From the human T2T-CHM13v2.0 reference genome, Homo sapiens, in NCBI RefSeq assembly GCF_009914755.1, contig NC_060927.1: DNA of 64,000 nt. The stretch is one strand, 5' to 3'. This document shows, piece by piece, positions 3,831-8,255 of the stretch. The translations under genes were made by a program, and so were the position numbers. Each line of letters opens with the position of its first letter. Positions within the stretch are counted from its first letter, which is position 1. Below the pieces are notes generated by a model. That model was not told where the DNA came from. It did no database searches and saw only the letters and a program-made list of their open reading frames with translations.

Positions 3831-5527
3831 AGAGCTATCCCACAGGAAAGCTGTTTTTAAGCAATTTGTTGACACCAATTTACACCATAATATAGGATAA
3901 ACTTGTAACGGTTTTCTGCATGTGCTTGAGAATAACACATACTGTCTAAACTTCATATATAATACCTTGTTCAAATCTTCAATAGAAGTGCAATTTTATA
4001 AAAATCTGCTTGGGATATGTCTCTTTGATCCCTAGTCTGTTGAGGATTTTTAGATTTTTATCATGAAGGGATGTTGGATTTTTATCAAGGCTTTTTCTCC
4101 ATCTGTTGAGATGATGATGTGATTTTTGCCTTTAATTCTGTTTATATGTTGAATCACATTTATTGATTTGTTCATACTGAGCCAGCCTTGCATCCTCAAA
4201 ATAAAGCCTACTTGATCATGGTGTGTTAACTTTTTGATGTGCTGCTGGATTTGGTTTGCCAGATTGAGGATTTTTGCATTTATGTTCATCAGGGATATTG
4301 GCCTGAAGTTTACTTTTTGGTTTTTTTCCTCAAAATAATAAGGGGCATCTATGACAAACCTATAGCCAACATCATACTGAATGGGCAAAAGCTAGAACCA
4401 TTCCCCTTGGGAACTGAAACAAGATAAGGATGCCCACTCTCACCACTCTTATGCAACATAGTACTGGAAATTCTAGCCAGAGCAATCAGGCAACAGAAAG
4501 ACACAAAAGGTATCCAAATAGGAAAATAAAAAATCAAACGATATGTTTCTTCACTGACAATATAACTCTATAACCAGGAAAGCCTAAAGACTCTGCCAAA
4601 AGACTACCATAACAAATAAATGATTTTAGTAAAGTTTCAGGATACAAAAGCAATGAACAAAAATTAGTAGCATTCCTATAATTCAATAACATCTAAGCCT
4701 AGAGTGAAATCAAGAACACAATCCCATTTACAATAGCCACAAAGAAAATGAAATACCTAGGAATACAGCTAACCTAGGAGGTTAAAGAGCTCCACAAGGA
4801 GAAAACATTACTGAAAGAAACACTACTGAAAGAAATCAGAGATGATGCAAATAATGAAAAACAGTCTATGCTCATGGACTAAAACAGTCAGCATCATTAA
4901 AATGGCCAATTGCCCAAAGCAATCTGCAGATTGAATGCTATTCCTATAAAACTACCAATGTTATTCTTCACAGAATTAAAAAAAAAACACTATTCTAAAA
5001 TTCATATGAAACCAAAAAAGAACCTGAATAGTCAAAGCAATTCTAAGCAAGAAGAACAAAGCATTACCCGACTTCAAACTATATTTTAAGTTATGGTAAC
5101 CAAAATAGCATGGTAATGGTACAAAAACAGACACATGAACCAATGAAATAGAATAGAAAACTCAGAAATGAAGCCTTCTACTTACAATCCTCTGATCTTC
5201 GACAAGGCCAACAAAAGCAATGAGGAAAGGACTCCCCATTTAGTAAATCATGCTGGGATAATTGGCTAGTCATATGTAGAAGAATAAAACTGGACCCTTA
5301 CATTTCACCATATACAAAAATTAACTGATGATGGATTAAAGATGTAAATGTAAGACTTCGAACTGTAAATGTCCTATAAGGAAACCTAGGACATACCCTC
5401 CCGATATCAGCCTTGGCAAATAATTTTTGGCTTAGTAGCCAAAAGCAATTGCAGCAAAAACAAAAATTGACAAGTATTGCCTAATGAAGTTAAAGAACGT
5501 CTGCAGAGCAAAATAAACTATCAACAG

Positions 5528-5927
5528 TGTCAGGCCTCTGAGCCCAAGCTAAGCTATCATATCCCCTGTGACCTGCATGTATATGTCGAGATGGCCCGAA
5601 GCAAGTGAAGAATCACAAAAGAAGTGAAAATGGCCGGTTTCTGCTTTAACTGAAGCCATTACCTTGTGAAATTCCTTCTCCTGGCTCATCCTGGCTCAAA
5701 AGCTCCCCCACTGAGCACCTTGTGACCCCCACCCCTGCCAGCCAGAGAACAACCCCCTTTGACTGTAATTTTCCATTACCTACCCAAATCCTATAAAACA
5801 GCCCCACCCCTCTCTCCCTTCACTGACTCTCTTTTCAGACTCAGCCCACCTGCACCCAGGTAATTGAAAAGCTTTATTGCTCACACAAAGCCTGTTTGGT
5901 GGTCTCTTCACACGGATGCGCGTGAAA
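5528..5927 (+). mobile_element. Solo LTR7-family (HERV-H) LTR
   Basis: Starts tgtcaggcctctgagccc, TATA-like cctataaaa, ends cacggatgcgcgtgaaa; TSD aacag at 5523-5527 and 5928-5932. Confidence 0.95.
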
Positions 5928-6228
5928 AACAGGTTAAACAGACAACCTATATAATGGGAGAAAATATTTACAAACTATATGTCTGAGAAAGGTTTAATAT
6001 CCAGAATCTATAAGGGAACTTAAATCAATAAGCAAAAACAACACCATTATAACGGGCAAAGACAATGAACAAACATTTCTCAAAAGACATATGAGCAGCC
6101 AAAAAAAATATTAAAATTGTTCATCATCACTAATTATTAGAGAAATGCAAATCAAAGCCACAAGGAGAGATCATCTCACATCAGTCAGAATGGCTGTTAT
6201 TAAAAATCCAAAAACAACGGTTATTCTG

Positions 6229-6618
6229 TGTCACGCACGTCCCTGTGAAGAGACCACCGGCAGGCTTTATGTGAGCAACAGGGCTGTTTATTTCACCTGG
6301 GTGCAGGTGGGCTGAGTCCGAAAAGAGAGTCAGGGAAGAGAGATAGGGGTGGGGCCATTTTGCAGGATTTGGGTAGGTAATGGAAAATTACAGTCAAAGG
6401 GGGTTGTTCTCTGGCAGGCGGGGGCAGGGGTCACAAGGTGCTCAGTGGGGGAGCTTCTGAGACAGGAGAAAGAATTTCACAAGGTTATGTCATCAGTTAA
6501 GGCAGGAGCAGGCCATTTTCACTTCTTTTGTGATTCTTCAGTTACTTCAGGCCATCTGGATGTATACATGCATGTCACAGTGGATATGATGACTTAGCTT
6601 GGGCTCAGAGGCCTGACA
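6229..6618 (-). mobile_element. LTR7-family LTR (3' LTR of HERV-H remnant)
   Basis: Reverse complement of complete LTR7; preceded on minus strand by a purine tract (aagaagataggaa) and internal sequence. Confidence 0.95.
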
Positions 6619-7209
6619 TTCCTATCTTCTTATATGAATAAGAAAAATAACATAAAATAGTGTTGAAGTGTTGGGGCAGCGAACATTTTTGGCAGGTGGT
6701 ATGGAGAGATAATGGGTGATGCTTCTCAGGGCTGCTTCAAGCGGGATTAGGGGCGGCGTGGGAACCTAGAGTGGGAGAGATTAAGCTGAAGAAAGATTTT
6801 GGGGTGAGGGGTGATAGTGTGGGGTTGTTAGAAGGAACATTTGTTGTATAGAATGGCCTGGATATGGTTTTGTATGAATTGAGAAACTAAGCAGAAGTTA
6901 CAAGGTCTGAATAAGAGAAGGAAAAAAACAGGTATTAAAGGACTAAGAATTGGGAGGACCCAGGACATCCAATTAGAGAGTGCCCAAGAGGGTTCAGCAT
7001 AATGACTTGCTTGGTTGGTGAGTTTTTGGGCTCTGTCCTTGAGTTTTTTTATGTTGTCATACACCAGGCCAGATTGATTTAGGTAAAAACAACACTCTTC
7101 ATTAAAAAATGTACAGTCTTCCTTTTTTAGCAGTAAGTAAGTCAAGGCCTTGGCAATTTTGGAGGAAAGAGAAACGCAAAGCCAGCAATTGTTTGTTAAA
7201 GAAGTTTAA
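6619..7209 (-). mobile_element. HERV-H internal 3' segment with defective env TM fragment
   Basis: Minus strand gives LQNCQGLDLLTAKK (immunosuppressive-domain-like), then after a frameshift DCTFFNEECCFYLNQSG (CX6CC) and a hydrophobic TM segment (ORF 6828-7145). Confidence 0.92.
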
Positions 7210-7598
7210 TGTCAGGCCTCTGAGCCCAAACTAAGCCATCATATCCACTGTGACCTGCAGCATACATCCAGATGGCCTGAGGCAACTGAAGAATCACAAA
7301 AGAAGTGAAAATGGCCTGTTCCTGCCTCAACCGATGACATTACCTTGTGAAATTTCTTCTCCTGGCTCAGAAGCTACCCCACTGAGCACCTTGTGACCCC
7401 TGCCCCTGCCTGCCAGAGAACAACCCCCTTTGACTGTAATTTTCCATTACCTACCCAAATCTTATAAAACGGCCCCACCCTTGTCTCCCTTCACTGACTC
7501 TCTTTTCGGACTCGGCCCGCCTGCACCCAGGTGAAATGAACAGCCTTGTTGCTCACACAAATCCTGTTGGTGGTCTCTTCACACGGACACGTGTGACA
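7210..7598 (+). mobile_element. LTR7-family LTR, inverted relative to the adjacent internal segment
   Basis: tgtcaggcctctgagccc...cacggacacgtgtgaca, followed by ttctg (7599-7603) matching 6224-6228. Confidence 0.95.
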
Positions 7599-8255
7599 TT
7601 CTGGTGAGACTGTGGAGAAAAGGGAACACTTCCACACTGCTGGTGGGAATGTAAATTAGCCACTGTGGAATGCAGTTTGGAGCTTTCTGAAAGAGCTGAA
7701 AACAGAGCTACCATTCAACCCAGTGACACCATTACTGGGTATGTACCCAAAGGAAAATAGATCATTATACCAAAAAGACACATGCGCTTGTGTGCTCATC
7801 ACCACACGATTCACAATAGCAAAGACATAGAATCAACCTAGGTGCCCAACGTTTGCCTGGATTAAAAAAAAAATGTGGTGCATGTACACCATGGTATACT
7901 ACACAGCTATAACAAATAATGAAATCAGGACCTTTGCAGCAACATGGATGGAGCTGGAGGCCATTATCCTAAGTGAACTAAGACAGGAACAGAAAACCAA
8001 ATACTGCATGCTCTCACTTATAAGTAGGAGCTAAACATTGAGCACGCATGGACATATAAACATGGGAACAAAAGAGACCATAGGCTACTTGAGACGGGAG
8101 GGAGGGAGAAGGAGGTGGATTGAAAAACTAACTATTGGGTACTGTGCTCACTACCTGGATGCAATATACTCATGTAGCAAACCTGCATTTGTACTCCCTA
8201 TATCTAAAATAAAGCTGATTAAAAAAAAAAGAAATCAACAGAGTAGAAAACCTAA

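What the first reader, a model, noticed from the sequence alone, without database searches (positions are those of the whole stretch)
6224..7603. HERV-H remnant with inverted LTRs (two outward U5 ends) inside a single 5-bp TSD
Seen: ttctg | LTR7 minus (6229-6618) | env-TM and purine tract, minus (6619-7209) | LTR7 plus (7210-7598) | ttctg. The host L1 reads colinearly across the site. The plus LTR is joined to env at its exact TG terminus, and the 5 bp left of it (tttaa) are not repeated on its right, so it is not a simple nested insertion. The two LTRs share diagnostics (atccactgtg, no ctcatcctgg duplication, aatRaacagcc signal, ...tgaca end) that the LTR at 5528 lacks. Established: proviruses have direct LTRs with one U3 and one U5 end, and HERV-H makes 5-bp TSDs. 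Inference: either an aberrant or auto-integrated cDNA integrated through two U5 ends, or a nested opposite-strand insertion was followed by a deletion using the tgaca microhomology shared by both LTR termini.
Basis: partly seen in the sequence, partly recalled or inferred. Interest (0 to 1): 0.8.

Follow-up and report, generated by a model that had tools for sequence, protein, structure and literature searches.

The report
HERV-H remnant with inverted LTRs
An ancient retrovirus fragment in human chromosome 3 has its two end-repeats facing opposite ways inside one insertion scar, which most likely records a malformed viral DNA copy that was still inserted by the viral integrase.

Summary
The structure is real: ttctg | LTR7 minus 6229-6618 | HERV-H PPT and env-TM remnant, minus, 6619-7204 | 5 odd bases tttaa | LTR7 plus 7210-7598 | ttctg. 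The host L1 holds that 5-mer once.

All 12 solo LTR7s I sampled carry a 5-bp duplication, so the two outward U5 ends look like one integrase event.

All 12 HERV-H copies that span the site read gatta where this locus reads tttaa. The last two bases, AA, are those that precede U3 at 9 of 10 PPT-U3 junctions.

So the inner joint looks like an unprocessed U3 end plus about 3 filler bases. It does not look like an integrase joint.

Best reading (about 0.55): a truncated minus-strand DNA became joined to a complete LTR by RT end-to-end switching or by end joining. That gave a DNA with two U5 ends, which integrase inserted.

The LTR tree neither supports nor rejects sister LTRs. Rivals are a nested insertion plus an exact deletion, and a rearrangement after integration. 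No second case and no printed description were found. No genome-wide scan or primate orthologue check could be run.

The parts
6224..6228 (.). left copy of the 5-bp target-site duplication, ttctg
   Evidence: L1 copies hold this 5-mer (as tgctg) once at the site.
6229..6618 (-). LTR7, minus orientation. Its U5 end faces out to the left and its U3 end abuts the PPT.
   Evidence: 88-93% identical to 39 other LTR7 copies.
6619..7204 (-). HERV-H internal 3' end: PPT (6619-6633), 3' untranslated stretch and the C-terminal part of env TM
   Evidence: colinear with other HERV-H copies over query 1-586 at 87-89%. PPT motif.
6831..7205 (-). open env-TM remnant of 125 aa holding the CX6CC motif. The immunosuppressive-domain-like stretch lies in another frame at 7105-7230.
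   Evidence: ORF list. TLV_coat E 1.5e-16. The second piece has E 0.0064, below the curated cut-off.
7205..7209 (.). 5 junction bases, tttaa, not colinear with env. The last 2 (AA) match the bases that precede U3 in unintegrated DNA; the first 3 are filler.
   Evidence: 12 of 12 spanning copies read gatta. AA at 9 of 10 PPT-U3 junctions and at 3 of 23 host-flanked LTR7s.
7210..7598 (+). LTR7, plus orientation. Its U3 end faces inward and its U5 end faces out to the right.
7599..7603 (.). right copy of the 5-bp target-site duplication, ttctg
5933..6223 (+). host L1 (ORF2 3' region), left flank
   Evidence: 75-76% identical to L1 copies in L005, L020 and L049, in the same orientation as the right flank.
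7604..7900 (+). host L1, right flank, colinear with the left flank

Best explanation
One integrase-mediated insertion of a malformed HERV-H DNA that had a U5 end at both tips.

Read on the window's plus strand, the element has three parts. First comes a truncated minus-strand DNA: its 5' end is the U5 terminus, followed by R, U3, the PPT and 586 nt of env, where it stops. Next come about 3 filler bases. Last comes a complete LTR that begins with the unprocessed U3 terminus (AA before TG) and runs to U5. [quoted passage not shown]

The inner joint was therefore made by something other than integrase. [quoted passage not shown] The other is cellular end joining of a free U3 end to a broken viral DNA, before or just after the ends were inserted.

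Integrase then processed and joined the two U5 tips to L1 DNA with the usual 5-bp stagger.

Shown: the anatomy, the single duplication, the two canonical outer joints and the non-colinear inner joint. Inferred: which enzyme made the inner joint; whether a longer three-LTR form existed first and later collapsed by LTR-LTR recombination; and whether both LTRs came from one RNA.
For: 1. Both outer joints are exact LTR termini. On the left, tgtcac follows ttctg directly with no AA. On the right, the LTR ends gtgtgaca. They sit inside a perfect 5-bp duplication of a site that L1 copies hold once. In my sample 12 of 12 solo LTR7s have 5-bp duplications.

2. The inner joint is unlike an integrase joint. 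The 5 bases before the TG differ from env at 3 of 5 positions, although 12 of 12 spanning copies agree with one another. At about 11% local divergence that has roughly a 1% chance.

3. The 2 bases next to the TG are AA, as at 9 of 10 PPT-U3 junctions and only 3 of 23 host-flanked LTR7s. The matching TT lies between U5 and the PBS in 5' LTRs. The unintegrated ends would therefore read AATG...CATT.

4. All three break points (two U5 tips and one U3 tip) are natural termini of reverse-transcription products. Only the env end is arbitrary.

5. The two LTRs share a rare transversion: 10 genome matches including these 2, against at least 1002 for the common form. They also share a 1-base deletion seen in 2 of 38 other rows. 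Each is among the other's best hits out of about 3000 candidates: tied 3rd-4th non-self and 2nd. Private changes are balanced at 14 and 16.

6. Their 9.0% divergence matches an old clade. A probable proviral pair of the same clade (L027 and C3:182319144) is 91% identical, and L087/L088 differ by 6.8%.

7. Supporting literature. MMLV-type RT adds untemplated bases and switches templates at template ends (PMC6885630, listing and start of abstract only). An integrase complex binds two U5 duplexes in vitro (PMC3623958, passages). Complex LTR-element insertions inside one duplication have been attributed to aberrant reverse transcription (PMC1950507, passages).
Against: The LTR tree does not make the two LTRs sisters. 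Both fall in the same weakly supported 18-row clade (92/87), but the plus LTR pairs with L023 (84/22). Forcing them together costs 4.96 log-likelihood units (AU p 0.385, so not rejected).

They share only 1 strictly rare event. Of 10 true proviral pairs, 8 share at least 1 (median 3), but so do 155 of 1700 non-partner pairs.

Their 9.0% divergence exceeds all 10 sampled proviral LTR pairs (1.9-7.6%). It is near the between-element median of 10.0%, and 37% of between-element pairs are at or below 9%.

Another LTR7 in the same clade (L072) also carries the rare A. A small source lineage could therefore explain the shared base.

The exact filler is unexplained: a PPT-microhomology priming model predicts bases that are not there.

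No second example was found, and how often two-U5 integration happens in cells is unknown.
Confidence: 0.55

Rival explanations
1. Nested insertion plus deletion. A normal minus-strand provirus inserted at ttctg. A second, plus-strand HERV-H then integrated into its env. A later deletion ran from the U5 end of the second element's LTR to the U3 end of the first provirus's 5' LTR, using the tgaca shared by both termini.
For: Two independent LTR7 insertions lie within 700 bp in this L1: the solo LTR at 5528-5927 has its own duplication, aacag. The LTR tree does not pair the two LTRs, and their divergence looks like that of unrelated copies. The tgaca microhomology exists at both termini.
Against: It needs a deletion whose two ends fall exactly on 5 bases out of several kilobases. 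An integrase joint should leave env colinear up to the TG, but 3 of the last 5 bases differ from the 12 of 12 spanning copies. It leaves the AA to chance (3 of 23). It also needs the second element to carry the same rare A by chance (8 other genome copies against at least 1002).
Confidence: 0.15
2. Rearrangement after integration. A normal minus-strand provirus was remodelled in the chromosome. A replication template switch or break repair copied or flipped an LTR into inverted orientation and removed gag, pol and most of env.
For: Short fillers and small templated pieces are typical of such repair. The tttaa is the reverse complement of ttaaa 4 bases upstream. The AA would also arise if the minus LTR's own flank had been copied.
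Against: Both ends of the inverted copy would have to fall exactly at LTR termini (within 2 bases on the U3 side and 0 on the U5 side), for which this model gives no reason. The two LTRs are as diverged as old proviral pairs, so any such event would have to be about as old as the insertion itself.
Confidence: 0.15
3. Autointegration. The U3 end of the viral DNA was inserted by integrase into its own env, inverting a segment, and the product then reached the chromosome.
For: Intramolecular integration gives an LTR whose U3 end is joined to internal sequence in inverted orientation. This is recalled from work on murine leukaemia virus circular DNA; it was not seen here.
Against: Such products are circles without free ends. 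An integrase joint would drop the AA and leave env colinear up to the TG, and neither is seen. The U5 next to the PBS would have to be cut free exactly.
Confidence: 0.05
4. Assembly artefact in this telomere-to-telomere assembly.
For: None found. Inverted repeats can in principle mislead assemblers.
Against: The arms are only 91% alike, so they are easily told apart. The flanks are colinear L1, and the joints are clean.
Confidence: 0.03

Closest known systems
Complex LTR-retrotransposon insertions inside one target-site duplication, attributed to aberrant template switching (Sabot and Schulman 2007, PMC1950507; rice cases in bioRxiv 10.1101/452573). Passages read.
   Same: More LTR material than a simple element, one flanking duplication, and an explanation by an abnormal reverse-transcription or pre-integration product inserted by the normal integrase.
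   Different: Those have three LTRs in direct orientation around two internal regions. 'Inverted' and 'opposite' occur 0 times in both texts. Here there are two LTRs in inverted orientation, with two U5 ends facing outward.
Autointegration (intramolecular integration) products of retroviral DNA. Recalled; PMC2644782 seen as abstract only.
   Same: An LTR whose U3 tip is joined to internal viral sequence, with the segment inverted.
   Different: Those are dead-end circles, and the joint is made by integrase. Here the element is chromosomal, and the inner joint keeps AA plus filler.
Two-LTR circle junctions made by end joining (recalled)
   Same: The terminal 2 bases that integrase would remove are retained at a non-integrase joint.
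   Different: That junction is U5 to U3 of one molecule. This one joins a U3 end to a broken env end.
Defective HIV-1 proviruses with internal inversions (PMC9278108, passages)
   Same: Integrated proviruses that carry inverted segments arising around reverse transcription.
   Different: In the passages read, inversions are internal and rare (2 of the classed proviruses). LTR asymmetry there means deletions. No inverted LTR pair is described.
In vitro intasomes and concerted integration with two U5 ends (PMC3623958, passages; the wider practice is recalled)
   Same: Integrase can synapse two U5 ends.
   Different: That is a test-tube substrate with HIV-1 integrase. Here the pairing is a germ-line insertion by an ancient gammaretrovirus-like element.

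Membership tests
HERV-H (LTR7 with HERV-H internal region) | LTRs homologous to LTR7 | tested here: met
   each arm is 88-93% identical to 39 other genomic LTR7 copies over its full length.
HERV-H (LTR7 with HERV-H internal region) | Internal region with gammaretrovirus-type env TM and a PPT abutting U3 | tested here: met
   colinear with other copies; TLV_coat E 1.5e-16; PPT motif as in other 3' LTR junctions.
HERV-H (LTR7 with HERV-H internal region) | 5-bp target-site duplication | tested here: met
   ttctg on both sides, present once in L1 copies. 12 of 12 solo LTR7s show 5-bp duplications.
HERV-H (LTR7 with HERV-H internal region) | tRNA-His-type PBS next to the U5 of a 5' LTR | tested here: not met
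   One search shows TT then tggtgcc after U5 in 5' LTRs of other loci. No such stretch lies between 6229 and 7598. The element is a remnant without gag, pol or PBS.
Canonical provirus | Two LTRs in direct orientation, with one U3 end and one U5 end facing outward | tested here: not met
   the LTRs are an inverted repeat; both outward tips are U5 ends.
Solo LTR nested in an older provirus (two clean integrase events) | The inner insert has its own 5-bp duplication, and the host element is colinear up to the insert's TG | tested here: not met
   tttaa on the left against ttctg on the right of the plus LTR matches at 2 of 5. The last 5 bases differ from env in 12 of 12 spanning copies.
Autointegration product | Integrase-processed U3 tip (terminal AA lost) joined to colinear internal target | tested here: not met
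   AA is present and 3 further bases are not env.
Autointegration product | 5-bp duplication of the internal target at the second joint | not testable with these tools
   The second joint is not present in the locus.
Complex single-event LTR-element insertion (aberrant reverse transcription) | One duplication flanking the whole complex | tested here: met
Complex single-event LTR-element insertion (aberrant reverse transcription) | The outermost LTRs are each other's closest relatives | tested here: inconclusive
   91% identical. Not sisters in the tree, but not rejected (AU p 0.385). One rare shared base and one semi-rare shared deletion.
Complex single-event LTR-element insertion (aberrant reverse transcription) | Direct orientation with a shared middle LTR | tested here: not met
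   Only two LTRs, and they are inverted.

The most novel reading that the evidence does not exclude
This is a germ-line fossil of integration through two U5 ends. An ancient gammaretrovirus-like integrase synapsed two U5 tips in vivo, on a DNA built by joining a truncated minus strand to a complete LTR. If so, inverted-LTR elements inside single duplications are a small, unrecognised class of ERV insertion. They could be mined across genomes to read how often reverse transcription and end pairing go wrong in nature.
Probability: 0.5. Interest if true: 0.55.

Novelty: new variant of a known kind. Interest (0 to 1): 0.5.

Why it matters
ERV annotation and dating assume direct LTRs that were identical at insertion. 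An element with inverted LTRs inside one duplication breaks that rule and would be split into unrelated pieces by standard pipelines.

If the reading is right, it is natural evidence of three things. Integrase does not need a U3/U5 pair in vivo. Incomplete reverse-transcription products can be rescued into the germ line. And the inner joint preserves an unintegrated viral DNA terminus about 20-40 million years old. That age is my inference from K2P 0.0975 and commonly used primate substitution rates, which are recalled.

A side point: a 390-bp inverted repeat with a 591-bp spacer would fold into long double-stranded RNA if transcribed. Inverted LTR pairs are among the reported host sources of Z-RNA (PMC12711578, passages). 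RefSeq marks an enhancer at 6918-7470 (hub annotation).

It is one locus, and the mechanism is inferred, so the weight is moderate.

Tried and rejected
1. A second case on chromosome 19. The hit lists showed LTR7s at C19:23172292 (minus) and C19:23173331 (plus), 648 bp apart. The sequence (L093) shows that the left LTR is a 5' LTR next to its PBS and that the spacer is host DNA with an Alu. These are two unrelated elements head to head, not a second case.

2. Head-to-head LTR7 pairs with 0-30 bases between their U3 tips: 0 matches in the genome.

3. Fold-back priming of the truncated minus strand on its own PPT. The last 6 env-colinear bases, AAGAAG, equal the PPT core. This route predicts PPT bases between AAGAAG and AATG, but ttt is there, so the register does not fit.

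4. Sister test by tree and by shared rare states: inconclusive.

5. Dating against proviral pairs. Searches without loci found a partner for 1 of 4 old-clade LTRs. The partners of the other 3 were not among the 40 scored hits.

6. Literature. Searches found no description of an ERV or provirus with inverted LTRs inside one duplication. Searches returned 0 papers. One search returned 7 papers, none on this. Subscription journals and older retrovirology are outside that library.

Full report
WHAT IS THERE

One search gives the sequence and the repeats. The order on the plus strand is:
- ttctg (6224-6228)
- LTR7 in minus orientation (6229-6618)
- 586 bases of HERV-H internal sequence in minus orientation (6619-7204)
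- five bases, tttaa (7205-7209)
- LTR7 in plus orientation (7210-7598)
- ttctg (7599-7603)

The inverted repeat is reported as two pieces, 337 nt at 91% and 52 nt at 94%. Both outward tips are U5 ends and both U3 ends face inward.

The middle part matches 39 other HERV-H copies in this genome at 87-89%, colinearly, in most over query positions 1-586. It holds a 125-aa open stretch with a CX6CC motif. Pfam places that stretch at the C-terminal end of TLV_coat, E 1.5e-16, profile positions 475-560 of 560. Its PPT abuts the U3 of the minus LTR, as in other 3' LTR junctions.

THE HOST SITE

The flanks are one L1. L1 copies that happen to lie in loci L005, L020 and L049 align to the left flank and then to the right flank in the same orientation, 5 bases apart. 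They read tgctg once where the window has ttctg twice.

In my sample of LTR7 loci, 12 of 12 LTRs flanked by host DNA on both sides have a 5-bp duplication, 9 perfect and 3 with 4 of 5. The duplication around the whole composite is therefore the normal mark of one HERV-H integration. The plus LTR on its own has no duplication: tttaa against ttctg matches at 2 of 5.

THE INNER JOINT

Of 19 HERV-H loci examined around the break, 12 span it, and all 12 continue gatta after the shared ...gttaaagaag. The other 7 are L005 and six near-identical chr16 copies, which leave the family sequence 7 bases earlier for a T-rich insertion.

The window reads tttaa, which matches 2 of 5. At the local divergence of about 11%, three changes in five bases has about a 1% chance (my arithmetic). 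An integrase joint into env should be colinear up to the TG.

The two bases next to the TG are AA. AA precedes U3 at 9 of 10 PPT-U3 junctions in my loci but at only 3 of 23 host-flanked LTR7s. In 5' LTRs the U5 end is followed by TT and then the PBS. From established retrovirology, I infer that unintegrated HERV-H DNA ended AATG...CATT and that integrase removes those two bases.

The left outer joint lacks AA (ttctg then tgtcac). The outer ends therefore look processed and the inner U3 end looks unprocessed.

MOST LIKELY MECHANISM

On the plus strand the element reads as three pieces:
- a minus-strand DNA that starts at its natural 5' end (the U5 tip), passes R, U3 and the PPT, and stops 586 nt into env
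- about three filler bases
- a complete LTR starting at the natural 5' end of plus-strand DNA (AATG)

Three of the four ends involved are natural termini of reverse-transcription products.

I therefore read the element as a malformed DNA with a U5 tip at each end. It was made by RT end-to-end template switching with a few untemplated bases, or by cellular end joining of a free U3 end to a broken viral DNA. Integrase then inserted it through two U5 ends.

End-to-end switching with untemplated bases is a documented property of MMLV-type RT (PMC6885630, listing and start of abstract only). A longer three-LTR precursor that later lost a genome by LTR-LTR recombination would give the same end state.

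That integrase can hold two U5 ends is shown in vitro for HIV-1 (PMC3623958, passages). For HERV-H it is an inference. Which enzyme made the inner joint is not shown.

ARE THE TWO LTRS SISTERS?

This test was not decisive.

For sisterhood:
- Each LTR is among the other's best hits out of about 3000 candidates, of which 40 were scored per search. The partner is tied 3rd-4th non-self and 2nd.
- They share a C-to-A change. None of 38 other sampled LTR7s has it. It has 10 exact matches in the genome including these two, against at least 1002 for the common form (the 501+501 count may be capped).
- They share a 1-base deletion seen in 2 of 38 others.
- Their private changes are balanced at 14 and 16.

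Against sisterhood:
- In a tree of 48 rows both fall in the same weakly supported 18-row clade (92/87), but the plus LTR pairs with L023 (84/22).
- Holding them together costs 4.96 log-likelihood units, which the AU test does not reject (p 0.385).
- One more LTR7 of that clade, L072, carries the same A. Five other A-carriers form a separate clade and two are distant.
- With a strict rarity rule, the pair shares 1 event. Of 10 true proviral pairs, 8 share at least 1 (median 3), and so do 155 of 1700 non-partner pairs.

On divergence, the pair differs at 35 of 389 sites (K2P 0.0975; 0.072 outside CpG). Ten proviral LTR pairs from chromosomes 1-2 differ by 1.9-7.6% (median 3.5%). Unrelated pairs differ by a median of 10.0%. 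Those ten were chosen because both LTRs keep an exact 18-mer, which favours young pairs.

In the pair's own clade, L087/L088 differ by 6.8%, and the probable partner of L027 is only 91% identical, ranking about 24th. For three other old-clade LTRs, no partner appeared among the 40 scored hits. So 9% is in range for this clade.

A two-molecule version of the model does not require identical LTRs in any case.

RIVALS

Nested insertion plus a deletion on the shared tgaca needs an exact deletion. It leaves both the five odd bases and the AA unexplained. It does gain from the fact that a separate solo LTR7 lies 296 bp away in the same L1 (5528-5927, duplication aacag).

A chromosomal template switch or repair event could make fillers. 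It gives no reason for both ends of the inverted LTR to fall at LTR termini.

Autointegration would give a clean integrase joint and a circle.

Misassembly is unlikely with arms only 91% alike.

My rough prior argument is inference, not computation. Opposite-strand HERV-H-in-HERV-H nestings should number only a few per genome. An exact 5-base deletion among kilobases is rarer still by orders of magnitude. Grossly rearranged proviruses are about a percent of integrants in the HIV passages read.

SEARCH FOR MORE CASES AND FOR PRIOR DESCRIPTION

A chr19 inverted pair seen in hit lists is two unrelated elements. No LTR7 pair has U3 tips 0-30 bases apart. A real genome-wide scan could not be run, and no other primate genome is held.

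Eight full-text searches found complex direct-orientation elements inside one duplication (PMC1950507; bioRxiv 10.1101/452573). They found no inverted-LTR ERV inside one duplication. Older subscription literature was not searchable.

VERDICT

The aberrant-cDNA reading is favoured at about 0.55. It is a new variant of a known kind, of moderate interest.

Noticed in passing
window 5523-5932: A solo LTR7 (5528-5927, plus strand) with its own 5-bp duplication aacag sits in the same L1, 296 bp upstream. It belongs to a different subfamily: it has the 10-bp ctcatcctgg duplication and ends tgaaa. There were thus two separate HERV-H insertions within about 700 bp.
   Followed up: partly
window 7195-7216: The last 6 env-colinear bases, AAGAAG, equal the core of the element's own PPT. 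The filler tttaa is the reverse complement of ttaaa 4 bases upstream. Either may hint at how the joint formed or may be chance. Several such patterns were looked at after the fact.
   Followed up: partly
L093 (G000:C19:23172200-23173810): Two LTR7s lie head to head, 648 bp apart. The left one is a 5' LTR next to its PBS, and the spacer is host DNA with an Alu. These are independent elements.
   Followed up: yes
loci L037, L043, L055, L058, L066, L067: Many LTR7 5' LTRs end tgaaa rather than tgaca before the TT and PBS. In a large subfamily the usual terminal CA reads AA. The two LTRs of the finding have tgaca.
   Followed up: no
loci L066-L070 and a second LTR in L054: Five of the eight other LTR7s that carry the rare A, together with one more copy, form a well-supported clade (100/99) apart from the finding's LTRs. 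The same base change therefore arose or spread at least three times.
   Followed up: partly
loci L013-L015 and L018-L020 (chr16): Six near-identical HERV-H 3' ends on chromosome 16 share the same T-rich insertion 7 bases before the break point. They are probably copies within segmental duplications.
   Followed up: no
window 6229-7598: The 390-bp arms at 91% with a 591-bp spacer would form a long hairpin if transcribed. The hub's table lists a RefSeq enhancer at 6918-7470 across the inner joint.
   Followed up: no
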